Positions 38,683 through 64,000 of a stretch of DNA of 64,000 nt are shown here, one piece after another (positions within the stretch are counted from its first letter, which is position 1; each line of letters opens with the position of its first letter). The DNA comes from an uncultured bacterium. Its GTDB lineage: Bacteria > JACRDZ01. The notes beneath the pieces were generated by a model that searched no databases, was not told the DNA's origin, and saw nothing but the letters and a program-made list of their open reading frames with translations. The DNA lies in the NCBI GenBank assembly GCA_964457585.1, contig CAYWFU010000003.1:5500-69499 (forward strand), in the 5' to 3' direction. A program made the position numbers and the translations under genes.

Positions 38683-38707
38683 TACAGTAAAGAATAGGAA
38701 TAAAATT

Positions 38708-45430: not shown

Positions 45431-45478
45431 TACCAGAGCTCTTGTTAATGATTGGTCATCAATGTTACCTGAACTAAT

Positions 45479-47764
45479 TTATTCATATTTTGTTAAAACA
45501 GCATTTTTTTTAGGTGATGTGATTTCTATTTTTGGACCGCTGGAAGATATAATAAAAGTAGTATCACTTTTTTCATCATCCAAATGAATATAAGCAGATT
45601 TTTTTCCTTCCTCTTCCTTTTTTTCTTTATCACGTATCATTTTAATATTTAATTCTCTTAGATGACAGGCTTCACATAATTGTTTTTCATCATTTTTAAT
45701 ACGTAAAAAACTATTTAGATTATCACCCTCAGCAATTTCCCTGTTTTTTGGTTCTTCAGGATCCCATTGGTGCACATCATGACAGGTTGCGCAGCTAACA
45801 TAATCCCAGAAACCGATATTTCCATCAATATCGTATAATGCCATAAAAGTTGGAGGAGGTGTGAGTTCTATATTACTTGGAGGAAATAATTTAGTTGAGT
45901 GATGTGCTGATAGTACTTTGGTACTTGCAGCACCTCCGGGACGATGGCAGAAATTACAGGATTTGGTAATATTATCTAAATTTTCCTGACGTGCAATATT
46001 TAATGTGAAAAGATATACAATTTCAGCATTATGCGGTGAATGACAGGCAGAACACGGTCCTGATAAAGAGACTTTTTCTCCTTTTAGATTAACGTAATTT
46101 GGATAGTTTAAAAATAAATCATGTTTGGTTTTTAATATTGTTTCTTTATCTTTATGACAATCTAAACATAATTCTGAATTGCTATTGGTCATATTCAAAA
46201 AACTATTTGTTCCATCACCTGTAATTGATCCGCTGAGTGAGATATTTAATAGCTGAAGATTAAATACAATATCTCCCTTTTTTATTTTTTCAATATTTTC
46301 TTCGGAAATAATTAAAGCAAAGATTTCTGATTCCTTGGCAAAAGGATTATAATTTAATACTTTTATTTTACCAATAATTTCACCATCTGCAAAAATAGAT
46401 AAAAGATTATCCTTTTTTACTTCTATTTTCATATTTTGATGGTCAACATATACATTTTTTCCTTTAATAAATATAATTTCTCCAATAGTCCCATTCTGGA
46501 GCATAGTTTTGTCTAATTTTATTTTTTCTTTTTTTACTTCACGTCCTAATTTTGACTTATCGGGTGACCATTGATGAACATTATGGCATGTGGTGCACTT
46601 TATCATTCCTTTACTTGATATTTTTCCATCTCTGCCAAAAAGAGGAAGGCTTGTAGTCATTTTCCATGAAGCTAATGCCAGATTTATAGGATGATAATTA
46701 TTCCCAATTAATTTTTTTTCAGCTATTTTACCTGATATATGACAACTGGTGCATTTTTTTGCTATAGTATCATCCTCAGGACCATATTCTCTGGCAAAAT
46801 TTTCTTTATCCTTCGCATTATGTACCAGATGACACGCGGAACATTGACCTGAATCGCCTGAAGATTTACCCCTGATATTTTTTTCATTAAAAGCTATTTC
46901 AAACATATCATGCGGACTGCCAATTATAAATCCCTGTGTTTTATGACAATTTACACATAAAGCAGAATTTAGCTGGTTGTTTATTCTTAAAAAACTGTTT
47001 TTTCCAATTCCATCTTCATTTTTATTTATTCCTGGTTTTTTTTCATCAGGAGACCATATATGAATATTATGACATGTTGCGCAGTTTATTTTTCCTTCAT
47101 ATTTTGGTTTACCATCGTCATCATAAAGCGGAAGAGTAGTAGTCAATCCCTTTTTTAACACTTCAATATTTAATGGATGGGAAAAATTATTCAAATTTTT
47201 AGATTTAGCGCAGCCGTTTTCATTATGACAGCTTTTACATAGCATTGTTAATATGTCTTCTGCAATATAAAAATTTTTAGCCCATAATTTTACCGTCTGG
47301 CCATTGTGCGCCAGATGACATGAAGAACATGGCCCCATTTTTCCTGTTGTCTGTTCTAAAATATTTTTTTCATCTGGAGCTGTAACTTTCATATCATGAT
47401 CTGTCCCAATAACAAATTTTTTATCATCATGACAGTTCACACAAAGAGAAGAAACGGGTAAATTAGGAATACGGAGCAAAAAAGTATAAGTTGTATCCTG
47501 CTTTTTTTGTCGTGCATAAGGATCATCAGTATGATATTTATGACAGGTTAAGCATGTAATTTTATCATCAAATAAAGGAAGAGTTGTGCGAAGTCCTGAG
47601 TCCTTCATTGAAATATTTACAGGATGCATCGTATATTTAGATGCAAAATGGCATGCATTGCAGGCAAGAGATGTATCATAATCAGCAGATGCAGCAGAAA
47701 AAATTTTTATTGAAAATATAGTTAGAAATATTAAAATTAGTGTTATTCTGTAATAAGAAATCAT
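45479..47764 (-). CDS. Multiheme c-type cytochrome, 15 CxxCH sites, secreted
   Basis: Signal peptide MISYYRITLILIFLTIFSIKIFSA. Manual count of 15 CxxCH motifs (CNACH, CLTCH, CVNCH, CSSCH, CKSCH, CATCH, CVNCH, CSACH, CTSCH, CTTCH, CLDCH, CSACH, CNFCH, CATCH, CEACH). Many are followed by a distal His (CxxCHxxH). Confidence 0.85.
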   Translation of the reverse strand: MISYYRITLILIFLTIFSIKIFSAASADYDTSLACNACHFASKYTMHPVNISMKDSGLRTTLPLFDDKITCLTCHKYHTDDPYARQKKQDTTYTFLLRIPNLPVSSLCVNCHDDKKFVIGTDHDMKVTAPDEKNILEQTTGKMGPCSSCHLAHNGQTVKLWAKNFYIAEDILTMLCKSCHNENGCAKSKNLNNFSHPLNIEVLKKGLTTTLPLYDDDGKPKYEGKINCATCHNIHIWSPDEKKPGINKNEDGIGKNSFLRINNQLNSALCVNCHKTQGFIIGSPHDMFEIAFNEKNIRGKSSGDSGQCSACHLVHNAKDKENFAREYGPEDDTIAKKCTSCHISGKIAEKKLIGNNYHPINLALASWKMTTSLPLFGRDGKISSKGMIKCTTCHNVHQWSPDKSKLGREVKKEKIKLDKTMLQNGTIGEIIFIKGKNVYVDHQNMKIEVKKDNLLSIFADGEIIGKIKVLNYNPFAKESEIFALIISEENIEKIKKGDIVFNLQLLNISLSGSITGDGTNSFLNMTNSNSELCLDCHKDKETILKTKHDLFLNYPNYVNLKGEKVSLSGPCSACHSPHNAEIVYLFTLNIARQENLDNITKSCNFCHRPGGAASTKVLSAHHSTKLFPPSNIELTPPPTFMALYDIDGNIGFWDYVSCATCHDVHQWDPEEPKNREIAEGDNLNSFLRIKNDEKQLCEACHLRELNIKMIRDKEKKEEEGKKSAYIHLDDEKSDTTFIISSSGPKIEITSPKKNAVLTKYE

Positions 47765-47865
47765 AATAATTCCTTTTTTATAATTATTTATATATTAAGA
47801 TAATAACAAATTTACCGATAATTATGCAAGTTAATAAAAATATATAATTTTAAAATAAAATTCCC

Positions 47866-47895
47866 TTGACTTTTTAAGTTGAAAATATATATAAT
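47866..47895 (+). promoter_or_regulatory. Putative sigma70-type promoter TTGACT-N18-TATAAT for the NHL/cytochrome operon
   Basis: Hexamers read directly in the divergent intergenic region. Would place the palindrome at about +60 to +90 of the leader. Confidence 0.35.
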
Positions 47896-47960
47896 ATATA
47901 TAATATAAAAAAATTATTAATTGAAACCTTTTAATAGAAAATAAAGTATACTAAAATATA

Positions 47961-47988
47961 GTAGAGACGCAAAATTTTGCGTCTCTAC
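47961..47988. promoter_or_regulatory. Perfect 28-bp palindrome GTAGAGACGCAAAATTTTGCGTCTCTAC, 16 nt upstream of the NHL-protein ATG (copy 2 of 2)
   Basis: Perfect dyad (14+14). Followed by RBS GAGGGAG and the ATG at 48005. Same sequence (1 mismatch) at 34758-34785. Confidence 0.6.
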
Positions 47989-48004
47989 AGTATGAGGGAG
48001 AATA

Positions 48005-49036
48005 ATGGACAAAACTCTTAAAGATTTTTTAATATGTTGTTTTTTTTTATTATTTTCAACTTTAATATATTCTGCTGAAGAAAAAAAAGGAACATCAAAT
48101 CCCCCGCCGCATGTGCTTTATACTATCCCTTCTGATAAATTTAGACTTGAAAAAAAATTAAGTCGTCCAACCGGTGTTACTGTTTTTAATGGTGATATAT
48201 ATATATCAGATTCATTAAATAACAGGATTGTTGCATTTAATGACATGGGGGAACTTCTTTTTATTATTGGTAAAAAAGGCAGTGGACAGTGTGAGTTTCA
48301 AACCCCATCAGGTATTATTGCTGATGAAGAAAATATTTATGTGGTTGATACTTATAATTCCAGAATTCAGATTTTAGACAGAAAATACGGAGATTATAAA
48401 TATGAAATAAATTTTAGGGAAAAAGTAAGTGAGGAAGATCAGGATAAAAAGAAATTAGAAAAAGAAGAACCTGCTGAGAAAAAAATAGGTGGAGAAGAAT
48501 TGGTAGTTCAAAAGTCAGTCCCTGTTCCTATTGATTTTGAAATGGATACAAAAGGTAAAATATATGTAACTTTTAAACGAAATAGTACAGTCAGAGTATA
48601 TGATAAAAAAGGAAATTTTAAATATAAATTTGGTAAACCCGGGCAGAATGATGGAGAATTTTCAATAGCTACCTCAATAGCAGCAAACAATATTACCAGT
48701 GAAGTTGAAACAAAAATATATATAGTTGATACAATGAACTATCGTGTGCAGATTTTTAATGAAAGCGGTAAATTTTTGAATAAATTTGGCCGTCATTCAG
48801 ATGAAATGGATGGTTTTTTAATGCCAAGTTTAATCAGTTTAGATAACAATAGCAGAGTTTATGTTTATGATCGGGCTAAAGGTAAAATTCTCGTATACGA
48901 TAAAGATAGAAAATATCTATTCTATTTTGGTCGTAGTGAAAAGCTTGCTTTTGCTGAAGATCTTTTTATAGACCGCGATAATACTATTTACGTGGCAGAT
49001 ACATTAAATAATCGTATTGTAGTGTATGGGTATTAA
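48005..49036 (+). CDS. NHL-repeat six-bladed beta-propeller protein, secreted
   Basis: Signal peptide. Repeated NHL signatures (…SDSLNNRIVAF…, …DTYNSRIQIL…, …DTMNYRVQIF…, …DTLNNRIVVY…). Confidence 0.8.
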   Translation: MDKTLKDFLICCFFLLFSTLIYSAEEKKGTSNPPPHVLYTIPSDKFRLEKKLSRPTGVTVFNGDIYISDSLNNRIVAFNDMGELLFIIGKKGSGQCEFQTPSGIIADEENIYVVDTYNSRIQILDRKYGDYKYEINFREKVSEEDQDKKKLEKEEPAEKKIGGEELVVQKSVPVPIDFEMDTKGKIYVTFKRNSTVRVYDKKGNFKYKFGKPGQNDGEFSIATSIAANNITSEVETKIYIVDTMNYRVQIFNESGKFLNKFGRHSDEMDGFLMPSLISLDNNSRVYVYDRAKGKILVYDKDRKYLFYFGRSEKLAFAEDLFIDRDNTIYVADTLNNRIVVYGY

Positions 49037-49053
49037 ATAAAAGAGGATAGAGG

Positions 49054-52000
49054 ATGAATAAAAAAAGAAACATTTTTATTGTTATTTCTATTATTTTCAT
49101 TTTATTATGTGCAACTCTTATTTTAGCTCTTCAAGGTCCTCATGGGAATCAAAAATTAGCAGATAAATTAGGAGGAGAATTTGATCCTGGTATTTTATGG
49201 GGTACATGTGCTCAGTGTCATAAAGTACATGGTGGTTTAAAAAGTGCTCGTTTATGGTATGAAGATATTTCACCTAATCCGGATAAAGCGTCATTAGTTG
49301 AAAGATTATGCCGTTTTTGCCATACAACTGATGGATTGGGAAATGAATTTACTGATATAGAAGGAACTGTGCATGAGCGAAAAGGACATATCTTTCAGAA
49401 ATCAGGCAGGTATGATAAAGATGGTAATTTAATGGAAGGTTTTGATAGCATGTATTCCTATGAATTAGTATATGATACCCCAACAGGAGGTTCTCTTGTT
49501 TCATGTTATGTATGTCACGATCCGCATGGCAGTCAATATTTTGAAACACATGAATATATTGATAGAACAGATGCAAATACAAAATATTCAACTAAATATC
49601 CAAGTCCAACCTATGATACAGCATATAGAATGAGATTAGCTGATAATTATTTTGTGACAAGAGTATGGAGAAATATTAATCCTGAAAACTCTAATTTGCA
49701 ATGGGATAAAAAATTTTTAAAAAGTAGATTAGGTCTGGGTTTTTCCGCTGTCTCAAAAACTACTTATAGAGAATTTGCATATGGCAGTACGGAATTGTAT
49801 GGAGACAGAACAGTTAATATACGTGATTTATGTTTTAATTGTCATCGTCCTGAAGGTGTTATTCAAGATCCAGCAAAAAGTGGAGCTATAAATATCTGGG
49901 GAGATACAACTGTAAGAGCTGAAGAATATAGCAAAGTTTTTTCAACTGATACTACTGAAATAGTTACCCCGCCTATAGGTGAAATTATGATTTCATCCGG
50001 GAGACAACTGGGAGATGTTTATGATACAATATTATGGTTTTATAATAAAACAACGATAGACAGTCCTGGTCCTAATGCATTTTATGATAATGCAACTCAT
50101 ACCTGTGTAACAGGTTGCCATAATCCAATAGTTGGTGAAGAAAAACCTGATGTACCTGGCAATAATGAAGCATATTATAATACTGCTTATTGGTATTCAG
50201 TATCACAAGAAGTATTAGATCAGGATGTAGCTTTAAATAAATATGAAACAGTAAATCTTGGGAAAGATGAAACAGGTATTAATAATAGATATGGAACAAC
50301 TTATCTTTATTATTCTAAGTTAGCTTGTGTTTCATGTCATAACCAGCATGGTGAGTATTTCAGGTCAAAAACAACTCATCATCCATATGATTCAACAATA
50401 CCTTTGTATATTTCTAGGACAGATGGATTTAATCAAGATAAGTCGCGTAGATTCTGTCTTGGTTGTCATGATGAACATATAAAATTTCAGGCGCCTCGTC
50501 CGGTAGGATTAGGTGTAACTGTACCGGCAATTGTCCCTGCACATTTTGATGATACAACTAGTGATGTCAGAAATGATTTATGTACATATTGCCATTCATG
50601 GGATAAGCCATTAATAATTGGTGGTTCTGTTTGCGGCAGTTGTCATGGATTTCCTCCAAATTATTTTGATGATAAAAAAAATGATAAACCTGGTGTGCAT
50701 GAGACTCATGTAATAGCGGAAGGTTATTCATGCATAACATGTCATTATAAATATCAGCATAATCAAAATAAAATAGACAAACCTGAAGATTTTCGAAATC
50801 CGGATAAACCTTTTGACTCTTCATTTATTAATGTCACACTCGATTCATCTGCTAAAATATTTTATAAAACAATAGCTGAATATGGCAAGCCATTTGATAC
50901 AGCTTATAAAATAGACAGACGATATAATAGAAGAAGAGGTACACATACATATGGATATATCATTTTTAATAATGTTGATTATCAGGACACAACTCTTAAA
51001 AAAATGAGGCCTCTTATTCCTGATACTACACTGCACTTAAATATTTATTCTACTACTTCGGTAAGGTTGACTTTCCCGTATGACTCAGCAGACCCGGTAA
51101 GAACAGAAATTAAAAAATTTTCAAGATCAGAAATGTGCTTGATGTGTCATGATAATGAAGTTGTGATTAACGGGATTCTAACAACGGGTTATAAATATCC
51201 TATTGATGGACCATATATAGAATTGCCATTAACGATTAATGAAGTTTTTCGTAAACCATTGCCAATTATAAATATTCAAAAATACTATTTTCTTGTTGGT
51301 CATGGAACAAGTTTTACATCTACTCGCAAAAAACCGCATAATCCGTTTTATAATCAATATGAAGATATATCCAGAACAGATTGTACTGATTGTCATGTTC
51401 CTCATGGTTCAGATACATTTCCATTGATTAGAGAGTGGATTAAAGATCCGCATAAACCTTATAACTCTACTGCAACATTTAATTCAACTACAGTCGCATC
51501 AGATAATAGAATTTGTTATGCATGTCATTCAGACAGATTGGATAATGGTTTTTGGCCAGGGCGGCAGAAATATGAAACTTCTATTCATTATCAATATTAT
51601 GATGATAACGATAATGCAATTTCACGTGTTTTTGATAGAGATACCTCAAAACCGTGGGTTACAGATTTTAGTCAAAATCCAAAATATGGCGATAGATATA
51701 GATGGAGATTCAGGCATGATAGTACAATGTCAAATAACGGGTCTGGTGTAAATGCCCGCGGCGGCGGACGCTGTGTTAATTGCCATAATCCGCATGGTGA
51801 TGGGTCGTCAAATATTAATAAACCAACATATGATATTATGGATAGCTCCTATAAAAATATGACAAATTATGGAGGCTCAAAATTATGTTATCGTTGTCAT
51901 GTAAATCCAGCTCAGGATAATACAGGGGTAAGCAGAGTTGCATGGAAAGATGTAAATAGTAACTGGAACGATTATAATACTACATCATGGATAGATGCTG

Positions 52001-54684
52001 ATATCCAGAGACAATTTGAATCTACAAGAGAACCAAATATCCGTTACCCCGGATATAGAGGATCACATCATGATGTTGGTGGAACCCGTTATAATAGCAC
52101 AGGAAGAAATTGGGTGCAAAGAGGTGATTGGGGTTATTTAAGATATAATAACGGTTCATATTATGAGACTGTTTTTGACTGGAGAGGCTACGATCAAATA
52201 ATTAATTTATATGATTCATCAGGTGATGACTCAAGGATAGAATGTATAAACTGTCATAATCCGCATATTGTGCAAAGGGATAATCCATATACGACTACTG
52301 CAATTGAGTCCTTAATAAATCCGGATCCAAATAATGGTGTACATCCAGATTCGGTAAATAAGGAATCCCCATATGTAGAAGAAACAAAATTTGATACTTT
52401 CTTTTTAGTAAGTGGGTTAACGCGAATTAATAAACAAAAAGTATTAAATCGTTTTTGTTTGCGATGCCATGACCATGATGCCAATTTAACAAGCCACAAA
52501 GATTTTGATTTATATTCTGAGTTAGATCCGCCAGAATGGTTATATAATTATGATTCACTGCAAATTGGTTATGAAATATGGAAGAAAAATCCAAGTATTA
52601 ATCCGGAACTTTTCAGGATGAGAAATGGAATATCCGCTGCTAATAATAAATTTTATGGTGAATTACCACGAGCAGTGGTATTTCCAAAAATAGAAAGAAA
52701 TATCTTTGTATGGGAGAAATGGGATAAATCATGGTTTTATTTCAGATCAGGACATGGAAAATTTGAAGATAATCCTGGAAATAATTATGATACTACCACT
52801 TCATGTATGGGATGTCATTATCCTCATGGAAGTTATATCCCAAAACTTTTAAGAACAGATACAACTGATACTAAAATAGTGCCGCAGGACAATGGTGCAG
52901 TTTACTGCTATAGATGTCATGAATTCCCGATAAATAATGGCTTCTGGAATGGAAAAGCAGGATGGAATGATGGTCCAAATAGAATTGCAATTCCTGAAGT
53001 TTTTGCGCAATATCAAAAAGGATTTGATAGTTCAATTCATAGTAAATATCCAAAAAGCTTTGAATCGCGTACATTCCCGAATAATAAAAATGTGAATATG
53101 TATAATTCAACATTGGGTTATGATACATCTGATGCAGGAAAATGTATTAATTGTCATGATCCTCATGGAACAGTGCGGCAGTCAGAAGGAAATGGATATT
53201 ATCAAACAATGGGATATCCAAATATGACCTATGGATATAAAGAAAATCTTTGTTATGATTGTCATGATGATAAAGCAACAAGATGGAAAAATGTAACAGG
53301 TGATGATGCAAATGGAATGGATCTAAAATCTATTTTTGGCAGTACTAATATTTCCCGTTCAAGGCATGATGTAGATACAACATCTGAAATGGGCGGAGAT
53401 AAAGCCTGGGATACAACACTGGATTATATATTAGGTGCCAATGGAGTAAATAGGGGCGATGATAGACGTATTGAATGTATCAGTTGTCATAATGTGCATG
53501 TAATAACAGGTAAATATGAAACAGGTAAAATTTATACCCCGGTTACACATCCGGAAAATCCTGCGTTATTAATTCGTGATTATGATACTGTTAATAACTG
53601 GCGGAATGGAAGAGCAATGAACACATTTTGTTTAGAATGTCATGATACAGGATGGGATACAACAGTTAATCTGTCAACAACAGTTGATAGAAGATATAAA
53701 TCACCGACTTATTTAATATTAAATAATGAATTTTTACCGCGTCCCGTTGTTTTCCCTAATTCAACAACAATCGTAGATAATAGTTACGATAATCAAGGAG
53801 ATCAACCTGCTGATCGCACAATTTGGTGGGCTGGCAACAAAAAGAGATTTTCTTTATATTATAATAAAGCGCCATATTATTACATTAATGGTCATGGGTC
53901 AGACAGTACAAGATCATATGGTGTGCCTGACGGACCAAATTTAATCCGTGTACCAATGAATGTATTATGTATTGATTGTCATGATCCTCATGCATCAACA
54001 AATATTAAACTTATCAGGGATATTGTTTTAAGATTTATTAGAAAATATAGAGTAGATACATCATTGGTTACAAATTATAAAAATAAGGTTCGGAATGAAA
54101 CAAAACTTTCAAGAGTAGACCCGCCTGGAGCAGCAGGCAGAGCAAAAGAATTATATTGCAACTGGGCATGTCATAATCCGGAATATAAGCATATTTTTAC
54201 TTATGTGCGTGATGATGACGGAAATTATTACGATTGGCCAAGCGGTGATCCTGAACAATTATTGGTTGATACAACTTCCTATCATGCGTATCGTTTAGAA
54301 ACTTATAGTGCAACAGGAAGATATATTAAAAGAGGAGATCTTGATGTTGGTTTTGCACATGGTAATGATTATTTACCAGGGCAGATCGGATATAAACAAT
54401 TTTCACCAAAATTCACTGCTGATCAATCAGATGTTGATGAAATGAAAGATACATTTAATCCAGTTACAAATACATATTTAGCCGTAGATAGCAGTAAAGT
54501 AATACCAGTAGGCGGCAGTGCGGAAGGTGATTATTATCGTCTTATGTGCTTAACATGTCATAATCCGCATGGTACAACAGATGATACAACAGATTTTAGA
54601 GAAGATAGACGCGGAATGACAGTATATGATCCAGATTCTGATGATATTAATTTATGTGCTCATTGCCATTGGAGAGCAAGATAA
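49054..54684 (+). CDS. Giant multiheme c-type cytochrome (1876 aa; about 25 CxxCH plus 2 CxxxCH sites)
   Basis: N-terminal signal/anchor MNKKRNIFIVISIIFILLCATLILA. Manual count of 25 CxxCH motifs, many in the form CxxCH(D/N)PHG, plus CVTGCH and CNWACH variants. RBS-coupled 17 nt after the NHL gene. Confidence 0.85.
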   Translation: MNKKRNIFIVISIIFILLCATLILALQGPHGNQKLADKLGGEFDPGILWGTCAQCHKVHGGLKSARLWYEDISPNPDKASLVERLCRFCHTTDGLGNEFTDIEGTVHERKGHIFQKSGRYDKDGNLMEGFDSMYSYELVYDTPTGGSLVSCYVCHDPHGSQYFETHEYIDRTDANTKYSTKYPSPTYDTAYRMRLADNYFVTRVWRNINPENSNLQWDKKFLKSRLGLGFSAVSKTTYREFAYGSTELYGDRTVNIRDLCFNCHRPEGVIQDPAKSGAINIWGDTTVRAEEYSKVFSTDTTEIVTPPIGEIMISSGRQLGDVYDTILWFYNKTTIDSPGPNAFYDNATHTCVTGCHNPIVGEEKPDVPGNNEAYYNTAYWYSVSQEVLDQDVALNKYETVNLGKDETGINNRYGTTYLYYSKLACVSCHNQHGEYFRSKTTHHPYDSTIPLYISRTDGFNQDKSRRFCLGCHDEHIKFQAPRPVGLGVTVPAIVPAHFDDTTSDVRNDLCTYCHSWDKPLIIGGSVCGSCHGFPPNYFDDKKNDKPGVHETHVIAEGYSCITCHYKYQHNQNKIDKPEDFRNPDKPFDSSFINVTLDSSAKIFYKTIAEYGKPFDTAYKIDRRYNRRRGTHTYGYIIFNNVDYQDTTLKKMRPLIPDTTLHLNIYSTTSVRLTFPYDSADPVRTEIKKFSRSEMCLMCHDNEVVINGILTTGYKYPIDGPYIELPLTINEVFRKPLPIINIQKYYFLVGHGTSFTSTRKKPHNPFYNQYEDISRTDCTDCHVPHGSDTFPLIREWIKDPHKPYNSTATFNSTTVASDNRICYACHSDRLDNGFWPGRQKYETSIHYQYYDDNDNAISRVFDRDTSKPWVTDFSQNPKYGDRYRWRFRHDSTMSNNGSGVNARGGGRCVNCHNPHGDGSSNINKPTYDIMDSSYKNMTNYGGSKLCYRCHVNPAQDNTGVSRVAWKDVNSNWNDYNTTSWIDADIQRQFESTREPNIRYPGYRGSHHDVGGTRYNSTGRNWVQRGDWGYLRYNNGSYYETVFDWRGYDQIINLYDSSGDDSRIECINCHNPHIVQRDNPYTTTAIESLINPDPNNGVHPDSVNKESPYVEETKFDTFFLVSGLTRINKQKVLNRFCLRCHDHDANLTSHKDFDLYSELDPPEWLYNYDSLQIGYEIWKKNPSINPELFRMRNGISAANNKFYGELPRAVVFPKIERNIFVWEKWDKSWFYFRSGHGKFEDNPGNNYDTTTSCMGCHYPHGSYIPKLLRTDTTDTKIVPQDNGAVYCYRCHEFPINNGFWNGKAGWNDGPNRIAIPEVFAQYQKGFDSSIHSKYPKSFESRTFPNNKNVNMYNSTLGYDTSDAGKCINCHDPHGTVRQSEGNGYYQTMGYPNMTYGYKENLCYDCHDDKATRWKNVTGDDANGMDLKSIFGSTNISRSRHDVDTTSEMGGDKAWDTTLDYILGANGVNRGDDRRIECISCHNVHVITGKYETGKIYTPVTHPENPALLIRDYDTVNNWRNGRAMNTFCLECHDTGWDTTVNLSTTVDRRYKSPTYLILNNEFLPRPVVFPNSTTIVDNSYDNQGDQPADRTIWWAGNKKRFSLYYNKAPYYYINGHGSDSTRSYGVPDGPNLIRVPMNVLCIDCHDPHASTNIKLIRDIVLRFIRKYRVDTSLVTNYKNKVRNETKLSRVDPPGAAGRAKELYCNWACHNPEYKHIFTYVRDDDGNYYDWPSGDPEQLLVDTTSYHAYRLETYSATGRYIKRGDLDVGFAHGNDYLPGQIGYKQFSPKFTADQSDVDEMKDTFNPVTNTYLAVDSSKVIPVGGSAEGDYYRLMCLTCHNPHGTTDDTTDFREDRRGMTVYDPDSDDINLCAHCHWRAR

Positions 54685-54757
54685 GAAGATCTGGATTTTT
54701 GACATTCTTGTTATTCAGGTGTCATAATTTAGTCATACTTTATATTGTACTGTAGTT

Positions 54758-54773
54758 GCTCGATTTATCGAGC
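54758..54773 (+). terminator. Probable intrinsic terminator hairpin GCTCGATTTATCGAGC followed by TTAATTTTAATTT
   Basis: 6-bp stem, 4-nt loop, T-rich tail. Nearly identical 35-bp module recurs at 58810-58845. Confidence 0.5.
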
Positions 54774-54957
54774 TTAATTTTAATTTAAAAAAAAATAAAC
54801 TTTTTTGAAACGCATTTGTATATTGCTAATGAAGGTACAAAAAAAGATAAAGCCTGCATTGAGAAGTTTTATGAGATGTAGATGTAGTGGCTGGATTACT
54901 ATCCAGCTCTCAAATAAGCAATGTTTTTAACTATTCAAGGTTTGCGGGAGAATTGCA

Positions 54958-58749: not shown

Positions 58750-58821
58750 AATTATAATTTAAGTACAGGAAATTGAAAAAGCCCAATGAATTGGGCAACT
58801 ACAATATATTGTAATGTAGTT

Positions 58822-58837
58822 GCTCGATTTATCGAGC
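58822..58837 (+). terminator. Second copy of the GCTCGATTTATCGAGC hairpin module (possible terminator/attenuator; weaker T-tract)
   Basis: Flanking sequence TTGTAATGTAGTTGCTCGATTTATCGAGCCTAATTTA matches the 54745-54785 module almost exactly. Confidence 0.4.
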
Positions 58838-58852
58838 CTAATTTAAGGAGTT

Positions 58853-59074
58853 ATGATGGCAACAACAGGAGTTCTAAAAAATATAGCGCGTAAAGTTACG
58901 CTTGAATTGATTTATGAAGTAGTTGATGAGCGAACTAAAGAACTAAAAGAAGAAATTCAGGAAATAAATGTAGAAATAAGAGCTATGAATACACGTATGG
59001 ATCAGCAATATATGGCTCTAAATGCAAGATTAGATCAAATATATGCAATATTACTGCAGGAGAAAAAGGTATAG
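58853..59074 (+). CDS. Small coiled-coil hypothetical protein (73 aa) between giant cytochrome genes
   Basis: ORF with RBS AAGGAG upstream. Heptad-like pattern (…ELKEEIQEINVEIRAMNTRMDQQYMALNARLDQIYAIL…). Followed by a perfect palindrome AGCGAATTGCAATTCGCT (59081-59098). Confidence 0.4.
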   Translation: MMATTGVLKNIARKVTLELIYEVVDERTKELKEEIQEINVEIRAMNTRMDQQYMALNARLDQIYAILLQEKKV

Positions 59075-59170
59075 GCAGCGAGCGAATTGCAATTCGCTGT
59101 TTCCAGGAGATTATTCATCATGGCTATTAAAGACAAACAAAAACACAATTTGTTTATAAAGGGTAAAATC

Positions 59171-62100
59171 ATGAAAAACATTAAAAAAATAGGACTTGCA
59201 TTAATTTTAATAAGTTCAATATTAATTACAGTATTAATCTGGATGCAGGATAAAGCTATTTCAATGATTCCAGGTACACCTCATGATTTTAACAATCGTA
59301 ATTTAATTGCATGTTTAGGCTGTCATAGCTTCCATTTTTCTGAACAAGGGATGGCAGGAATAGATTCTTCAAGAGTATTCTGGCCTGGAAAAGTTCTTGA
59401 TACAGATTCAGAAAAAACAATACAAACTGTATGCTGGGGTTGTCACGGACCAGGCGGAGTACCTGATGGAGTAACAGCATTTCAACAGCAAGGCTGGACA
59501 AAAGGGCAGAATTGCAAAAAATGTCATACTTCAGGTGAAATTGCTGTTTTTGAGCAGCTAGGTTTTAATACAACTTTTGTTCCTCCCAATATTAAAGATA
59601 AATTTTTAAGAACATATTCTCACCATCCGATTGACACAGATTCTACTATAGGTTTATTAGGTAATACTAATCATAGTTGTATAGGATGTCATACACCTCA
59701 TGGAGCATGGGATTCGGGATATACTTATTATGGGAAAAAAGATACATATCCTTATCCAAAGCTATTGCGCGTAAAAGTTACAGATACAAGTTCAGCGCGA
59801 GGTTATAGAGGTTATGTATTTGGAACAGAAAAGTTCTGTTTTACCTGTCATGATTTATTATTTCCTAATATGAAAGATCCTGCAAACATAGCTTTTTGTT
59901 CAAATCCATCCTGTCATATAACAGGACAACCTTCAATCAGTGATCTGGGAAATGGATATTATAACTCTTCGCATGTATATAAATATACATCGCATACAGA
60001 AAGAGATATGACAAATGATTTTACAGATAGCCCGACTTATGAAGTTGGTCCAACCTTAACTCAACAATATATGTGGCATAAGAAAAGAAGAAGAAGTGAT
60101 TATTATCTGGGCAGTGCGCATAAGTTTATGAATCGGCTAAACAATCCATATAGATCAGGCATACGAACAGATGGGAAGATAGATTCAAGCGATATTTCAT
60201 GTTTAATATGTCATGAAATACATGGCGGCAGCAAAGATCCTAGAAGTAATAATTTGATGCGCGGAATAGAAACGCCGGATGGATATAAAGCATATTCACA
60301 AAATACATTATGTTATCAATGTCATGATGCTCAATGGCATTATGACTCTATAGTAGTAAATCCTAATTTTACATATCGTTATTACCGCTGGCAGACAACT
60401 GGTCAGGCGTCAGGGACATATGGTACGGATTATATAATACCATTATCCCCAAAACCTCATCGTGCGGATAAAGCAGGAAATAGAAAAGGGCATGGCGCTC
60501 AATTAGTAATAGATTATATAAAAGGGCAGACTTCTGATACTGCCGGAATAATATTTTCTGAAGGTGTACCTTGCTCAAAATGTCATGAACCTCATGGTAC
60601 AGGACAGGAAAAAATGATTAAAGTTATTACTCAGGATGTTCATCGAAATGAAGATGACGGTCCAAGCACAGGACATCCAACAGGCGGACTTTATATTACC
60701 ACACGTATTTATCCAAATTATTCAACAGTTTCAGTAAACAAATATAACACTACTTTTTTTAATAATTTTTGTTATGGATGTCATACTTCACCAGCTTTTT
60801 CAACAGTTGCTGTATATTCTGATGCTGGTCCAACTTATATTGATTGGAAAACAGGAAGTGCTGCTACTGGTTTATTTTATTCTGGTAAAAGTAAATTCGA
60901 TTCCAGCAGTCATAAAAATGCTAAAAATATTTATGAAAGTATGTTCGGCAGACCTTCCGCAGGTTGCCGTGCATGTCATGAACCTCATGGTACAGATTAT
61001 CCGGCAACAACATTAAAATTTGAAGAAAAATTGTGTTTTGATTGTCATCAATATGGAATAAGCAATCATAAAATAAGTTTTAAAGAATTATATGAAAGTG
61101 TTAGTGCAATTATGGAAAGGTCTGATCGTAAAGCAGGTTCAATGCATACTGTTTTTGATAGTTTTCAGACAGGATTCCTGACAGGTCCTGTAAATAGAAA
61201 AGTGGAATGTACAAACTGTCATAATACACATACTGCAAATCGACAATATCCATTAATGGATCCTGATTCACCAAAAGATATATTTAATACAACAACATTG
61301 CGAAGTGCTAATTCATTCTGCTTCAAATGTCATGGTGGAGATAGAGCAAATCCATATGTGCAAGGAGCCGGAGCAATTCCCTTTCCGGGTTATCGTCTAT
61401 TTGGTTATAAATATGGAGATACGCTTTCAATAGCAAAAATAACACAAGCAGGTACCCCTGATATCAGATTACGTGATATTACTCAGCAAAATGCTGGAGC
61501 ATGGGGTTATCTTTATAATAATCCATCGTTTGGTCAAGGTAGAGGAGATAGCGATAACAATTATGGACATCTAACAATAGATGCTACAGCTTTAGATGGT
61601 ATTGAGGGTATAGGAGAACCAAATAAGATTCTTTGTATTGATTGTCATGAAATACACGCATCATCTAATATAAGATTAATTAAAGATGTCCCATTCCGTT
61701 ATTCACGCAACCCATTTGGTGCTGCAACCATGAATTATGGTTATGATTCAACATCAGATTCAACAGTTACACGAGCCTTCTGTTTTTCATGCCATGTATT
61801 TGGAGTTAATGAGGGCGGTTCAGGAAGTATTGTATACTATTACAATAACGCAAAAAAAGTTGATCCATATAAATCAGCAAAAGGATATATAATCAGTACT
61901 CCAAACAATGACACAACAGGATATGGAGGAATTAAAAAAGGCGGATGGCTTGCCAGAGAATTAAGCAGACCATCAGTAGGTACTGGTTATGTTCTTCAGC
62001 ATGAAACAACAGGTCAGGTTAAGGATTGGTTGTGTATAAACTGTCATTTACCTCATAATCCAAGACCTGTTTATACAAGCAGATGCCTCACAGATGGCAG

Positions 62101-64000
62101 GGAAAATGATATTGGTTATAGAGGCTGTCATAGCAGTACTGATGCGGTAACTCAAGGTCCTACTGGTAATCCATACAGCAGTACTTATAATGAATTTTTT
62201 GCTCCCCAATTTATTTCGCAGCATTCTGTGAAATATGATACAACCGGACAATCAAGCCTTGGTTCATATGGTTCTTATATTGATAATGAATGCGCTAAAT
62301 GTCATGCAGTTGGTTCATTATATGATAATTTAGGTGCAGGTGCTGGTACTAATTATGGACATAATAATCATGGTATAAATTATAATTCAATAATTTCATC
62401 ACGGGGCGCATCCCCAGTTGTTCGTGATGCAAATGCAAAAAATAATTTTATATTTTATGGATTTAAAGAATTTTTAAAACCTTTTGAAGTTAATTATACT
62501 TATAGTAATGAATTTTGTCTGGATTGTCATAGTAATGCCAAGTATGATGATCATGATGCATTTCCTTATACTTATGGCGCTCCTCCTGGTGGAAGTTTGG
62601 CTTCAGAAACTAATACAGACCCAGAATGGCCAAAATTTTCAGGTCCAAAAGCAAGTATAGATACAAATGGTGATGGGCTTATAGATAAAAATTCCATGTA
62701 TGCTTCTGAATTAATTAGCGGTTATGAAAGACAATATGGAACAACATATCGTGTAATATATAGATTGGACAAAGCATGGTCCTATTATGGCGGGGGTCAT
62801 GGAAATAAAGTATGGGAAAGTACAAAAGAAATGAAATCCTTTATTGGTGAAGGTAATATCCGCAGTGATACGACAACATTTGATAAAGTGTCTACATGGG
62901 ATGAGGATATACTTGATGTCCCGGGCGGCAAAGGCGTACTATGCTTTGATTGTCATGAACAGCATGGATCACGTTTGCCAAAAAATTTAAGAATAATTGA
63001 AACATCATCAATAAAAATAAATAGAATAATTGGAATGAATAATGAGTATTTCTGCTATCAATGCCATGCAACACGATTTGACAATAATCGCCTGCCTTTA
63101 TGGCCTGGTGAAATGATTTATGAATCCAGTGTTCATGGTTATGGTATTCAATATGATGGAGGCGTTCCTGCTCCAAGCGGTGGTGCATGGGATTCAACAC
63201 TTCATGGAAATAGAGGTCCTGCAGCAACAAATATTGCCAAAGGTACATGTACAAACTGCCATGACCCTCATGGAAAAGGCTGGCGTGATGATAATTTAGA
63301 TGGAAGAGCTGATTCAACCTATCCATCAATGTTAGAGGAACCGGAAGAAAGAGTATGCTATATCTGTCATTCAAATAAAAATACTCCAGCACCAAATTTA
63401 TGGACAGGATTGGGTTATAAAACAGTTGTTGAAGTTCAAAATGCATTCCCTGGTAAAAATCGCGCTAAAAATATGAAAATTCAGTTTGACATGCCGCAAT
63501 ACTATAATACTGCCAGCGCTCATAATATATATAATAATGATACATCAAAAATAGAATGTACAGATTGTCATAACCCGCATTCAATGAAACGAAAGAATAA
63601 GATTGTTGCCTGGGGTGAGTCAACAGTTATGTCAAATTTAAGCAAAAATTACTGGAATCTGGATATAGATTCTACTGCGCGTGCAGTAGGTTTCTGTATA
63701 CAATGTCATGGTAATGACACAAATAGCGATGGATATCCTGATTCTACAGGTGCATGGGGTCCAAGGATAGCAATAGCTCGCAATGATTTGCGTCCGGTAA
63801 ATAAAAGAGTTAAATTCTGGAATGTGTTTAGAGGCGGAGTTGCTCAATGGGTATGGGATAAATCAACTCATGGCAATGTAGCTCAGGGTAATTTATCACG
63901 TCGAAAATATCAGGGGACTAATGGTGTATATCCGGGTCCAGATGGAGAACCAGGTTATAATTGGGGTGCAGTAGCGGAAATTTTCTGTATATACTGTCAT
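59171..64000 (+). CDS. Giant multiheme c-type cytochrome, 3'-partial (more than 1610 aa in window; at least 25 CxxCH sites)
   Basis: My own translation from ATG 59171 (MKNIKKIGLALILISSILITVLIW…) runs open in-frame to the window end (…FCIYCH). Manual count of 25 CxxCH motifs plus a CSNPSCH variant. An in-frame ATG at 59120 is an alternative start. Confidence 0.8.
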   Translation, partial: MKNIKKIGLALILISSILITVLIWMQDKAISMIPGTPHDFNNRNLIACLGCHSFHFSEQGMAGIDSSRVFWPGKVLDTDSEKTIQTVCWGCHGPGGVPDGVTAFQQQGWTKGQNCKKCHTSGEIAVFEQLGFNTTFVPPNIKDKFLRTYSHHPIDTDSTIGLLGNTNHSCIGCHTPHGAWDSGYTYYGKKDTYPYPKLLRVKVTDTSSARGYRGYVFGTEKFCFTCHDLLFPNMKDPANIAFCSNPSCHITGQPSISDLGNGYYNSSHVYKYTSHTERDMTNDFTDSPTYEVGPTLTQQYMWHKKRRRSDYYLGSAHKFMNRLNNPYRSGIRTDGKIDSSDISCLICHEIHGGSKDPRSNNLMRGIETPDGYKAYSQNTLCYQCHDAQWHYDSIVVNPNFTYRYYRWQTTGQASGTYGTDYIIPLSPKPHRADKAGNRKGHGAQLVIDYIKGQTSDTAGIIFSEGVPCSKCHEPHGTGQEKMIKVITQDVHRNEDDGPSTGHPTGGLYITTRIYPNYSTVSVNKYNTTFFNNFCYGCHTSPAFSTVAVYSDAGPTYIDWKTGSAATGLFYSGKSKFDSSSHKNAKNIYESMFGRPSAGCRACHEPHGTDYPATTLKFEEKLCFDCHQYGISNHKISFKELYESVSAIMERSDRKAGSMHTVFDSFQTGFLTGPVNRKVECTNCHNTHTANRQYPLMDPDSPKDIFNTTTLRSANSFCFKCHGGDRANPYVQGAGAIPFPGYRLFGYKYGDTLSIAKITQAGTPDIRLRDITQQNAGAWGYLYNNPSFGQGRGDSDNNYGHLTIDATALDGIEGIGEPNKILCIDCHEIHASSNIRLIKDVPFRYSRNPFGAATMNYGYDSTSDSTVTRAFCFSCHVFGVNEGGSGSIVYYYNNAKKVDPYKSAKGYIISTPNNDTTGYGGIKKGGWLARELSRPSVGTGYVLQHETTGQVKDWLCINCHLPHNPRPVYTSRCLTDGRENDIGYRGCHSSTDAVTQGPTGNPYSSTYNEFFAPQFISQHSVKYDTTGQSSLGSYGSYIDNECAKCHAVGSLYDNLGAGAGTNYGHNNHGINYNSIISSRGASPVVRDANAKNNFIFYGFKEFLKPFEVNYTYSNEFCLDCHSNAKYDDHDAFPYTYGAPPGGSLASETNTDPEWPKFSGPKASIDTNGDGLIDKNSMYASELISGYERQYGTTYRVIYRLDKAWSYYGGGHGNKVWESTKEMKSFIGEGNIRSDTTTFDKVSTWDEDILDVPGGKGVLCFDCHEQHGSRLPKNLRIIETSSIKINRIIGMNNEYFCYQCHATRFDNNRLPLWPGEMIYESSVHGYGIQYDGGVPAPSGGAWDSTLHGNRGPAATNIAKGTCTNCHDPHGKGWRDDNLDGRADSTYPSMLEEPEERVCYICHSNKNTPAPNLWTGLGYKTVVEVQNAFPGKNRAKNMKIQFDMPQYYNTASAHNIYNNDTSKIECTDCHNPHSMKRKNKIVAWGESTVMSNLSKNYWNLDIDSTARAVGFCIQCHGNDTNSDGYPDSTGAWGPRIAIARNDLRPVNKRVKFWNVFRGGVAQWVWDKSTHGNVAQGNLSRRKYQGTNGVYPGPDGEPGYNWGAVAEIFCIYCH

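What the first reader, a model, noticed from the sequence alone, without database searches (positions are those of the whole stretch)
45479..64000. Dense cluster of four giant multiheme cytochromes (about 80 heme sites) with NHL propeller and a 1602-aa beta-helix/Ig surface protein
Seen: a 761-aa (15 CxxCH), 1876-aa (~25 +2 variant), 1263-aa (~14) and >1610-aa (at least 25) cytochrome c gene. All have signal peptides. They are arranged as a divergent pair of transcription units sharing one intergenic region. The left unit (minus strand) is the 761-aa cytochrome followed by the 1602-aa beta-helix/Ig protein. The right unit (plus strand) is NHL propeller, 1876-aa cytochrome, 1263-aa cytochrome, a 73-aa coiled-coil protein, then a cytochrome of at least 1610 aa. 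Established: multiheme cytochromes with NHL-repeat partners are hallmarks of extracellular electron transfer (EET) loci in metal-reducing/oxidising and DIET-capable bacteria. Heme-wire proteins of more than 1000 aa are rare. Inference: this is an EET or 'cytochrome nanowire'-type module in an AT-rich, probably poorly characterised lineage. The combination of giant hemoproteins with a beta-helix/Ig giant protein and no recognisable porin partner is not a textbook Mtr/Pcc arrangement and may represent an undescribed conduit architecture.
Basis: partly seen in the sequence, partly recalled or inferred. Interest (0 to 1): 0.85.

Follow-up and report, generated by a model that had tools for sequence, protein, structure and literature searches.

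The report
Giant multihaem cytochrome cluster, one gene broken
An AT-rich uncultured bacterium carries a real cluster of giant haem-chain proteins (about 80 haem sites), and its "761-aa cytochrome" and "1602-aa beta-helix protein" are two halves of one conserved gene for a haem wire fused to an adhesin-like stalk, split here by a single stop codon.

Summary
There are four giant c-type cytochromes with 15, 25(+2), 14(+2) and at least 25 haem motifs. Each has an N-terminal export signal. They sit with an NHL propeller in a divergent arrangement.

One point is wrong. The 761-aa cytochrome and the 1602-aa beta-helix/Ig ORF are in the same frame, separated only by a TAA at 45479-45481. An Ig-like domain spans that stop. 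Continuous homologues of 2171-2490 aa exist; the closest named one is from a Candidatus Desantisbacteria MAG, and two of the four carry Gln at that position. It is therefore one 2380-codon gene, broken by a nonsense mutation or a sequencing error.

The fusion plus a divergent NHL gene is conserved in both related loci whose neighbourhood could be read. NHL genes lie within 10 kb of 37 of 74 distantly related cytochrome loci.

No porin, quinol dehydrogenase or secretion genes are in view, and the window ends inside the last cytochrome.

Best reading: an envelope or surface electron-transfer module built around a cytochrome-tipped stalk protein. It is analogous to the archaeal ANME "MHC-C" (haems plus a pectin-lyase-like domain). 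Extracellular function is inferred, not shown.

This is a new variant of a known kind, of moderate interest.

The parts
40622..47764 (-). One conserved giant gene of 2380 codons: signal peptide, 15-haem wire, Ig-like/beta-sandwich domains, right-handed beta-helix, five tandem ~195-aa double beta-sandwich units. It is interrupted by one in-frame TAA.
   Evidence: The two ORFs share a frame. Continuous homologues are P0127 (2171 aa; about 51% identity over the haem half, 53% over the rest) and P0130 (2490 aa); P0128 (52-54%) and P0129 are partial. Both halves are equally conserved.
45479..45481 (-). In-frame TAA (codon 762) that splits the giant gene. Two homologues have Gln here (the others Val and Ile), consistent with CAA to TAA.
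   Evidence: TAA is the commonest ordinary stop in the window (22 of 36 genes), so reassignment is excluded. The NCBI-derived gene calls treat the halves as separate proteins: P0001, 761 aa, and P0277, 1595 aa from GTG 45409.
47687..47764 (-). Sec-type signal peptide of the fused protein (MISYYRITLILIFLTIFSIKIFSAASA).
   Evidence: Read from the sequence. It is the only hydrophobic segment in the whole 2380 aa.
45650..47686 (-). 15-haem domain built from about four repeats of a ~160-aa four-haem module.
   Evidence: Motif positions. Internal repeats are 35-45% identical. Pfam Paired_CXXCH_1, MtrC-MtrF_II-IV, Cytochrome_C7 and c3_2. Haem Cys/His are invariant in the family alignment.
46250..46507 (-). 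Conserved haem-free small beta-barrel insert between haems 10 and 11.
   Evidence: Conserved in all family members. It is the only confidently folded part of the haem-domain model, with pLDDT 65-84. There is a weak SH3-like hit, E 0.011.
45302..45535 (-). Ig-like (Glucodextran_B-type) domain that spans the TAA.
   Evidence: 33.9 bits across the stop. The same domain is intact at the same place in P0127, residues 743-821, 35.6 bits.
43439..44296 (-). Right-handed parallel beta-helix (pectin-lyase / NosD / AlgG-like).
40625..43348 (-). Five tandem ~195-aa units of two beta-sandwich domains (the stalk), with no C-terminal anchor motif recognised.
   Evidence: Internal repeats are 26-38% identical and match the beta-sandwich domains upstream of the beta-helix. 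Those upstream domains fold as beta-sandwiches. Foldseek hits strings of Ig-like domains in the giant adhesin SiiE and the grappling-hook protein GhpA. No Pfam family matches.
47765..48004 (.). Divergent intergenic region with a promoter-like site (47866-47895, +) and a 28-nt perfect palindrome (47961-47988) 16 nt upstream of the NHL start codon.
48005..49036 (+). NHL six-bladed beta-propeller with signal peptide.
   Evidence: Pfam NHL 76 bits and DUF5128 80.5 bits. An NHL gene lies divergently next to the fusion gene in L080 and L081 as well.
49054..54684 (+). 1876-aa cytochrome with 25 CxxCH plus 2 CxxxCH and a very hydrophobic N-terminus (a possible membrane anchor).
   Evidence: It is a distant paralogue of the last cytochrome, 21-25% identical. 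The sequence is confirmed by the Logan contig L075.
54958..58749 (+). 1263-aa cytochrome with 14 CxxCH, 1 CxxxCH and 1 CxxCK, and a cleavable-type signal peptide.
58853..59074 (+). 73-aa helical ORF with no signal peptide; it is not established that this is a real gene.
   Evidence: The exact sequence is not in the protein collection.
59120..64000 (+). Cytochrome of at least 1610 aa (start at 59120 or 59171) with 25 CxxCH so far; it runs off the window end.
11867..12700 (-). Supporting gene outside the cluster: System II cytochrome c biogenesis protein CcsB, within a hemA-hemC haem-synthesis operon.
   Evidence: TIGR03144 233.8 bits against a cut-off of 187.6. Neighbours are GluTR and porphobilinogen deaminase.

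Best explanation
The region is a cell-envelope electron-transfer gene cluster of an AT-rich, diderm, uncultured bacterium. The closest named relative of its key gene is a groundwater Candidatus Desantisbacteria MAG.

The conserved core is a divergent gene pair:
1. One giant exported protein. An N-terminal 15-haem wire is covalently joined to an adhesin-like stalk made of Ig-like/beta-sandwich domains, a pectin-lyase/NosD-type beta-helix, and five double beta-sandwich repeats.
2. An NHL beta-propeller. In this genome it is followed by three more giant cytochromes with 27, 16 and at least 25 haem sites.

Proposed mechanism:
- The proteins are exported by Sec, and haems are attached by a System II (CcsB-type) machinery.
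- The long haem chains relay electrons through and beyond the periplasm.
- The stalk and beta-helix part holds the haem wire at, or binds it to, a polysaccharide-rich surface. Candidates are the cell's own envelope or matrix, a partner cell, or particulate matter.
- The NHL propeller acts as a scaffold.

In this particular genome the fusion gene carries one premature TAA. As sequenced, it would yield only a free 761-aa 15-haem cytochrome, unless the stop is an assembly or sequencing error.

Shown: the motifs, the export signals, the single-gene nature of the fusion and its conservation, the NHL linkage, and the CcsB gene.
Inferred: location, direction of electron flow, partners, and any extracellular acceptor.
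For: - Haem motifs and domains.
- The two ORFs share a frame and a domain spans the stop.
- Continuous homologues have the same order of parts.
- Two further MHC plus beta-helix fusions exist, P0153 (37 haems) and P0176 (23 haems).
- The divergent NHL gene is conserved in L080 and L081. In L080 a cytochrome follows the NHL gene, as it does here.
- NHL ORFs lie within 10 kb in 37 of 74 distantly related cytochrome loci from many phyla.
- Fold of the non-haem part: the beta-helix resembles AlgG, AlgE4, NosD and tailspikes; the Ig-like strings resemble SiiE and GhpA.
- CcsB and the haem-synthesis operon are in the window.
- BamA, LptD and LolCDE-like genes show a diderm envelope.
- Literature precedent: NHL proteins in EET clusters (PMC9769857; bioRxiv 10.1101/2022.05.06.490989), and giant ANME cytochromes fused to a pectin-lyase-like domain (PMC9012536).
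Against: - No outer-membrane porin, quinol dehydrogenase or secretion system is in the 64 kb.
- The window ends inside the last gene, and the rest of the 104,788-bp contig could not be fetched.
- The fusion gene is interrupted in this genome.
- The SPOR domain at the C-terminus of homologue P0130 and NosD-like and AlgG-like folds are typical of periplasmic proteins.
- The hydrophobic N-termini of two cytochromes may be inner-membrane anchors.
- There is no expression or biochemical evidence.
- The haem domain could not be modelled (pLDDT 33.5).
- The closest NHL homologues by sequence are not next to cytochromes.
Confidence: 0.6

Rival explanations
1. This is a periplasm-confined electron relay or store (a 'capacitor'), not an extracellular conduit. 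The giant cytochromes are tethered to the inner membrane by uncleaved N-terminal anchors. The fusion protein is held on peptidoglycan or periplasmic polysaccharide. Together they bridge or buffer electrons inside the envelope.
For: - There is no porin in view.
- The N-termini of the 1876-aa and last cytochromes are very hydrophobic over 25-28 residues.
- Homologue P0130 ends in a SPOR domain, 22.8 bits against a cut-off of 21.
- The best structural matches of the beta-helix include the periplasmic proteins AlgG and NosD.
Against: - The stalk of about 14 beta-sandwich domains plus a beta-helix resembles surface adhesins and filaments. By rough estimate from typical domain sizes it is longer than a periplasm is wide.
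- The MtrC/MtrF-type pentahaem domain hits are above threshold.
- The SPOR domain is present in only one homologue, not here.
- The window is truncated, so a missing porin is weak evidence.
Confidence: 0.25
2. This is a decaying remnant. The cluster, or at least the fusion gene, is a pseudogene in this organism, next to a mobile element, with no current function.
For: - There is an in-frame TAA at codon 762 in a strong termination context, TAA-A.
- The downstream half has no signal peptide or good start codon.
- An IS-like unit with perfect 24-nt inverted repeats lies 22 bp from the gene's 3' end.
Against: - The 1618 codons after the stop contain no further stop or frameshift in a 32% GC genome.
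- The downstream half is as similar to homologues as the upstream half: 52-53% against 51-54%.
- The other four genes are intact.
- Homologues in two other assemblies are also split, and one of these is a 2x long-read contig. Assembly error is therefore a common cause of such splits.
- The stop could not be checked against reads.
Confidence: 0.1
3. This is an array of respiratory enzymes of the nitrite/hydroxylamine/sulfite-reductase type acting on soluble substrates.
For: - There is one CxxCK motif at residue 41 of the 1263-aa protein.
- A profile of the haem domain gives marginal matches to NrfA chains, E 0.004-0.3, about 19 bits.
- There are weak NrfB/NrfH-like hits below cut-off.
Against: - No catalytic family reaches its threshold in Pfam or NCBIfam.
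- No sequence match to any solved enzyme at E below 0.001.
- The architecture is repetitive four-haem modules and long chains, not compact octahaem or pentahaem enzyme cores.
Confidence: 0.05

Closest known systems
ANME archaeal giant multihaem cytochrome type C (MHC-C; Chadwick et al. 2022, PMC9012536)
   Same: A single polypeptide combines a long multihaem chain with a pectin-lyase-like right-handed beta-helix. It has no transmembrane anchor other than the signal. The proposed role is contact with a polysaccharide surface or partner cell during extracellular electron transfer.
   Different: - That protein is archaeal, and its beta-helix is N-terminal to the haems.
- Here the host is bacterial and diderm.
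- The haems come first, followed by Ig-like domains, the beta-helix and five double beta-sandwich repeats.
- Sequence homology to MHC-C was not tested.
NHL-propeller-associated outer-surface cytochrome clusters (Desulfovibrio ferrophilus DFE_0448-0465; Ca. Tenderia electrophaga UetH/I-UetJ)
   Same: Exported multihaem cytochromes are encoded next to NHL beta-propeller genes. The same linkage is seen here and in 37 of 74 related loci.
   Different: - Those cytochromes are much smaller (about 11-26 haems). In Tenderia they come with a beta-barrel porin (UetC) and CcsAB genes.
- No beta-helix or stalk fusion is described there.
- The NHL proteins are only 24-33% identical to this one.
Shewanella MtrCAB / Geobacter Pcc porin-cytochrome conduits
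   Same: MtrC/MtrF-type pentahaem domain signatures are above the Pfam threshold in all four cytochromes. The host is diderm.
   Different: - There is no MtrB/PioB or OmbB-like porin in the window.
- There is no MtrA/DmsE-type decahaem: TIGR03508 scores 34-71 bits against a cut-off of 192.
- The proteins are 2-7 times longer.
Long single-chain 'wire' cytochromes of Desulfuromonadia (for example the 27-haem, 130.7-kDa protein of Geobacter metallireducens; PMC11492766)
   Same: These are very long multihaem polypeptides, predicted to be extracellular, and not encoded in a porin-cytochrome operon.
   Different: No detectable close sequence relationship was seen. Those proteins are haem-only and lack stalk or beta-helix domains.
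Cell-wall cytochromes of Gram-positive metal reducers (Thermincola potens OcwA, PDB 6I5B by my identification; giant 2335-2386-aa, 16-haem ORFs in Thermincola MAG loci L006 and L019)
   Same: Giant, sparsely haemylated cytochromes are associated with the cell wall. The best, though marginal, PDB sequence match of the haem-domain profile is 6i5b_A, E 0.001. The Thermincola loci were retrieved as distant relatives.
   Different: The similarity is at noise level. The envelope type is different: this genome encodes BamA and LptD.

Membership tests
Multihaem c-type cytochromes | Multiple CxxCH haem-attachment motifs far above chance | tested here: met
   79 canonical motifs. There are 0 in 13,528 aa of control ORFs, and shuffles give a mean of about 0.05. 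Pfam Paired_CXXCH_1 scores 42.9-144.9 bits against a cut-off of 20.6.
Multihaem c-type cytochromes | Export signal, because haem attachment occurs outside the cytoplasm | tested here: met
   All four cytochromes and the NHL protein have N-terminal hydrophobic signal sequences. This was judged by eye and by hydropathy; no dedicated predictor was available.
Multihaem c-type cytochromes | A cytochrome c maturation system in the genome | tested here: inconclusive
   CcsB (TIGR03144) scores 233.8 bits against a cut-off of 187.6 at 11867-12700. Its ResB/Ccs1 partner is not in the window. This gene sits in a hemA operon like Bacillus hemX, so its role could be regulatory.
Mtr/Pcc porin-cytochrome conduit | Outer-membrane beta-barrel porin (MtrB/PioB, OmbB) encoded with the cytochromes | tested here: not met
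   Pfam scans of all large ORFs in the window find only BamA (Omp85) and an LptD-like protein, both far from the cluster. The region downstream of 64000 was not seen.
Mtr/Pcc porin-cytochrome conduit | Periplasmic MtrA/DmsE-type decahaem | tested here: not met
   TIGR03508 scores 34-71 bits against a cut-off of 192.2.
MtrC/OmcA/MtrF outer-surface decahaem family | Pentahaem domain II/IV signature | tested here: met
   PF22113 scores 38.9-81.8 bits against a cut-off of 30 in all four cytochromes.
MtrC/OmcA/MtrF outer-surface decahaem family | Four-domain staggered-cross architecture (beta-barrel, pentahaem, beta-barrel, pentahaem) and a lipoprotein signal | tested here: inconclusive
   The haem-domain model failed, with pLDDT 33.5. 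No canonical lipobox is visible at any N-terminus. There is no sequence hit to solved MtrC/OmcA chains.
Cytochrome nanowire subunits (OmcS, OmcE, OmcZ) | Sequence or fold similarity to a filament-forming subunit, and polymerisation | tested here: not met
   No PDB sequence match at E below 0.001 for any of the four cytochromes or for the family profile. Polymerisation cannot be tested here.
ANME MHC-C-like haem plus pectin-lyase-domain fusion (architecture class) | More than 10 haem motifs and a pectin-lyase-like beta-helix in one polypeptide | tested here: met
ANME MHC-C-like haem plus pectin-lyase-domain fusion (architecture class) | Same domain order and common descent with the archaeal proteins | tested here: not met
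   The published description puts the pectin-lyase-like domain at the N-terminus. Here it follows the haems.
NosD (N2O-reductase maturation) | NosD-type beta-helix | tested here: met
NosD (N2O-reductase maturation) | Encoded with the NosF/NosY ABC transporter and nosZ | tested here: not met
   There are no such genes in the window or in L080, L081, L094 or L095 next to the homologues.
NHL-associated cytochrome clusters | An NHL beta-propeller gene adjacent to exported multihaem cytochromes | tested here: met
   This holds in the window, in L080 and L081, and in 37 of 74 distant loci.

The most novel reading that the evidence does not exclude
A previously undescribed bacterial protein family, a 'cytochrome on a stalk'. 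A 15-37-haem wire is covalently fused to a giant adhesin-like stalk with a polysaccharide-binding beta-helix, and in the closer members is paired with an NHL propeller. It would let poorly known groundwater candidate phyla (Desantisbacteria and neighbours) make direct, contact-dependent electron exchange with particles, matrix or partner cells without an Mtr/Pcc-type porin. This would be a bacterial counterpart of the ANME MHC-C proteins.
Probability: 0.3. Interest if true: 0.75.

Novelty: new variant of a known kind. Interest (0 to 1): 0.55.

Why it matters
If the reading is right, electron-conducting haem chains are being built directly into adhesin-like surface stalks in candidate-phylum bacteria that, in the literature I could search, have not been linked to extracellular electron transfer. 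That would extend to diderm bacteria the 'cytochrome fused to a surface-binding domain' solution known from methane-oxidising archaea.

It would also provide a compact, recognisable marker for finding such organisms in metagenomes: the fusion gene with a divergent NHL gene.

There is a practical lesson as well. One stop codon made a single conserved gene look like two unrelated genes. Annotation-based surveys would then count a cytochrome and a cytoplasmic 'beta-helix protein' instead of one exported fusion.

Tried and rejected
1. The word-indexed homologue searches found nothing but self, both for the junction/beta-helix region and for the 1876-aa cytochrome.
   - These were false negatives. 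The exhaustive HMMER scan then found P0127/P0128 at about 50% identity.
   - The exact downstream ORF P0277 is also in the collection.
   - 'No homologue' for the 1876-, 1263- and last cytochromes therefore cannot be claimed.
2. Fetching the source contig failed.
   - Exact look-ups of the 1263-aa and 761-aa proteins are not on record.
   - The genome scan did not contain the source genome.
   - The region beyond 64000 stays unknown.
3. The metagenome scan with the family alignment gave only distant beta-helix hits.
4. The neighbourhoods of the three best NHL homologues contain no cytochromes. NHL orthology by sequence is uninformative; only position is.
5. AlphaFold of the haem domain with a 4-sequence alignment failed, with pLDDT 33.5, so no fold search was run on it. 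The afdb50 library was unavailable.
6. Stop-codon reassignment (TAA to Gln) is rejected, because TAA ends 22 of 36 genes. Programmed read-through was considered but has no support. By general knowledge, TAA followed by A is an efficient terminator.
7. The taxon could not be fixed.
   - The fusion gene and the best NHL hit point to a Desantisbacteria MAG.
   - A 27-nt REP-like element is shared with a Firestonebacteria MAG.
   - The transposase clusters at 90% or more with one from a 'Poribacteria' MAG.
8. A paper search for the run accession found nothing.
Full report

Translation and motif counting give:

| ORF | CxxCH | Variants |
|---|---|---|
| 761 aa | 15 | none |
| 1876 aa | 25 | 2 CxxxCH |
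| 1263 aa | 14 | 1 CxxxCH, 1 CxxCK |
| last ORF (runs off the window) | 25 | none |

That is 79 canonical sites, so 'about 80' is right.

- The signal is not chance. The other ORFs of the window (13,528 aa) contain no CxxCH. Shuffling each cytochrome gives a mean of about 0.05 motifs. Almost every cysteine is in a motif.
- All four proteins exceed the Pfam gathering scores for Paired_CXXCH_1 and the MtrC/MtrF pentahaem domain. The 343-aa protein is an NHL six-bladed propeller. The 1602-aa ORF contains a right-handed beta-helix.
- Each cytochrome and the NHL protein begins with a hydrophobic export signal.
- An independent Logan assembly of run SRR12113406 matches window 48145-57920 with one mismatch.

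**2. The main correction: two 'genes' are one.**

- The 761-aa cytochrome (45479..47764, minus strand) and the 1602-aa ORF (40622..45430) are in the same frame. Only a TAA at 45479-45481 separates them.
- The peptide reads straight through an Ig-like domain. With the stop masked, Pfam Glucodextran_B matches profile positions 1-75 at 33.9 bits (cut-off 27). The downstream ORF alone matches only positions 23-75, at 19.1 bits.
- The downstream ORF has no signal peptide and only TTG/GTG starts. An Ig/beta-helix protein without an export signal makes little sense on its own.
- The exhaustive HMMER scan of 1.84 billion representatives, queried with the first 1200 aa after the stop, found continuous homologues.
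  - P0127 is 2171 aa, and query residues 3-1200 align to its residues 764-1947.
  - P0130 is 2490 aa.
  - P0128 and P0129 are partial.
- Their N-terminal parts are a signal peptide plus a multihaem domain collinear with the 761-aa protein. P0127 has 15 CxxCH at equivalent positions.
- P0127 has the intact Glucodextran_B domain at residues 743-821.
- In the family alignment the stop column holds Q, Q, V and I. The window reads 'TKYE*ISSGNI' and P0128 reads 'TSKEQIISGNI'. This is consistent with a CAA to TAA change.
- Identity to P0127 and P0128 is the same before the stop (51-54%) and after it (52-53%). The 1618 codons after the stop are otherwise open in a 32% GC genome. The break is therefore either very recent or an error.
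- TAA is the ordinary stop of 22 of 36 genes here, so a changed genetic code is excluded.
- The NCBI-derived gene calls list the two halves as separate proteins.
- I could not check reads.

**3. Anatomy of the fusion protein (2380 codons).**

- Signal peptide.
- Fifteen haems in about four repeats of a ~160-aa four-haem module, 35-45% identical to one another.
- A conserved haem-free small beta-barrel inserted between haems 10 and 11.
- A Lys/Glu-rich linker.
- The Ig-like domain, then further beta-sandwich domains.
- A right-handed beta-helix.
- Five tandem ~195-aa units made of two beta-sandwich domain types that also occur upstream of the beta-helix.

AlphaFold2 on a five-sequence alignment of the first 738 residues after the stop gives pLDDT above 90 for the beta-helix and 70-90 for most beta-sandwiches.

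- Foldseek matches the domain string to the giant adhesin SiiE and the grappling-hook protein GhpA.
- No transmembrane segment or recognisable C-terminal sorting signal is present.

**4. Conservation and context.**

- P0128 is GenBank MBI4652439.1, 'right-handed parallel beta-helix repeat-containing protein, partial [Candidatus Desantisbacteria bacterium]'. The next gene in that MAG (P0139) continues the same protein.
- That MAG also holds the best NHL hit, at 32% identity. One of its contigs has 31.5% GC, against 31.9% for the window.
- In both related loci whose neighbourhood could be read, an NHL propeller gene lies divergently next to the fusion gene, as it does here.
  - L080 is a Logan contig.
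  - L081 is an ENA contig, where the fusion is split by a frame shift in a 2x long-read assembly.
  - In L080 the NHL gene is followed by the start of a cytochrome whose N-terminus aligns with that of the 1876-aa protein.
- Two more distant fusions of a multihaem chain with a C-terminal beta-helix exist: P0153 (37 haems) and P0176 (23 haems). They have different neighbours and no visible NHL gene.
- Only 6 of the 150 best beta-helix/Ig hits carry haem motifs. A scan of JGI metagenomes found no close member. The family looks rare.
- In 74 loci fetched as distant relatives (21-38% identity) of the last cytochrome, from many phyla, 37 have an NHL-like ORF within 10 kb.
- The literature reports the same linkage in Desulfovibrio ferrophilus and Ca. 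Tenderia.
- The three closest NHL homologues by sequence are not next to cytochromes.

**5. The rest of the window.**

- The organism is diderm: it has BamA with five POTRA domains, an LptD-like protein and LolCDE-like genes.
- A System II CcsB gene above the NCBIfam equivalog cut-off sits in a hemA-hemC operon.
- No MtrB/PioB-type porin, MtrA-type decahaem, quinol dehydrogenase or secretion system is in the 64 kb.
- The window ends inside the last cytochrome, and I could not obtain the rest of the 104,788-bp contig.

**6. What it most likely is.**

- I read the cluster as an envelope or surface electron-transfer module.
  - Its conserved core is a cytochrome-tipped stalk protein plus an NHL scaffold.
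  - In this genome three more giant haem chains add to it.
- The motifs, the export signals, the fusion and the synteny are shown.
- The location and the extracellular function are inferred from three things:
  - the adhesin-like stalk;
  - the polysaccharide-binding fold;
  - analogy with NHL-linked EET clusters and with ANME MHC type C, whose pectin-lyase-like domain has been suggested to recognise partner-cell walls.
- The chief rival is a periplasm-confined relay or store.
  - It is favoured by the absence of a porin.
  - It is also favoured by the very hydrophobic N-termini of two cytochromes.
  - The SPOR peptidoglycan-binding domain at the end of P0130 points the same way.
  - So do the periplasmic nature of AlgG and NosD.
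- An enzyme-array reading has only marginal support.
- In this strain the fusion may be non-functional if the TAA is real.

**7. Comparison with what is known, and novelty.**

- The cluster is not an Mtr/Pcc conduit: there is no porin, and the MtrA model scores far below its cut-off.
- It shows no sequence relation to solved nanowire cytochromes.
- Very long single-chain cytochromes without porin partners are already described in Desulfuromonadia. In the fetched loci, 16 ORFs over 1000 aa carry 16-50 CxxCH. Size alone is therefore not novel.
- I did not find two things described:
  - the bacterial fusion of a haem wire to an Ig/beta-helix stalk with a divergent NHL partner;
  - its presence in Desantisbacteria-like lineages.
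- The architecture class has an archaeal precedent, so I rate the finding a new variant of a known kind.

**8. Caveats.**

- The word-indexed protein searches gave false negatives here. Nothing can be said about how isolated the three right-hand cytochromes are.
- The taxon is inferred from two genes, a shared repeat element and a shared transposase that point to different candidate phyla.
- The haem domain could not be modelled.

Noticed in passing
window 47961-47988 and 34759-34786; L079 5365-5391: A 28-nt perfect palindrome, GTAGAGACGCAAAATTTTGCGTCTCTAC, lies 16 nt upstream of the NHL start codon. It recurs with one mismatch 13 kb away. 27 of its 28 nt (positions 1-27) also occur in a Candidatus Firestonebacteria MAG contig. 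It looks like a REP-type element shared between candidate-phylum genomes.
   Followed up: partly
window 39535-40604: An IS-like unit. Perfect 24-nt inverted repeats (39535-39558 and 40577-40600) flank a 334-aa IS200-like Y1 transposase with a DnaA-C HTH domain, 22 bp from the 3' end of the fusion gene. The protein clusters at 90% or more with a partial transposase from a 'Candidatus Poribacteria' MAG, MBI5417388.1.
   Followed up: partly
window 54751-54765, 54883-54897, 58815-58829 (45-nt repeat at 54736-54780 and 58800-58844): The motif TGTAGT(T/G)GCT(C/G)GATT, followed by a short hairpin, occurs three times. It is found only in the intergenic regions after the 1876-aa and 1263-aa cytochrome genes; 0.02 occurrences are expected by chance. 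It may be a terminator, processing site or operator of the operon.
   Followed up: partly
window 9566-13338: A haem-synthesis operon: hemA (GluTR), hemC, and a precorrin-2 dehydrogenase-like gene. It carries an embedded CcsB/HemX-type cytochrome c assembly gene, reminiscent of Bacillus hemAXCDBL.
   Followed up: partly
window 25232-29134 (minus strand): Another giant envelope-type protein: 1300 aa, TTG start, one N-terminal hydrophobic segment and two Glucodextran_B Ig-like domains. It has no other family match and no BLAST similarity to the fusion protein.
   Followed up: no
window 16390-20438: An mcsA-like (UVR) gene, mcsB (arginine kinase) and clpC form an operon in a diderm genome. This arrangement is best known from Firmicutes.
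   Followed up: no
window 20458-20494, 20602-20639, 38648-38683; also 29200-29351 and 32466-32520: Further families of intergenic repeats: AGCTGAATGCTGA-type heptad arrays and a 37-nt inverted repeat.
   Followed up: no
window 13633-13754 and 43129-43208: Runs of a 7-nt unit (CTTCTGY). One lies at the 5' end of the DciA ORF. The other lies inside the Lys/Glu-rich linker of the fusion gene.
   Followed up: no
L080 8575-8825 (P0130 residues 2411-2478): The 2490-aa homologue of the fusion ends in a SPOR peptidoglycan-binding domain. It is followed by glycosyltransferase, radical-SAM and YfhO genes, which suggests a link to cell-envelope glycan biology.
   Followed up: partly
L094 1200-4134; L095 5889-9083: The more distant haem plus beta-helix fusions have different neighbours. 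P0153 sits beside a cysteine-desulfurase-like aminotransferase, a Se/S-carrier protein and a 509-aa cytochrome. P0176 sits beside a 1064-aa Wza-like polysaccharide export protein.
   Followed up: no
tool behaviour: The word-indexed protein search missed 50%-identical homologues, and even the 100%-identical downstream ORF, for these low-complexity AT-rich giant proteins. Negative results from it should not be trusted for such queries.
   Followed up: yes
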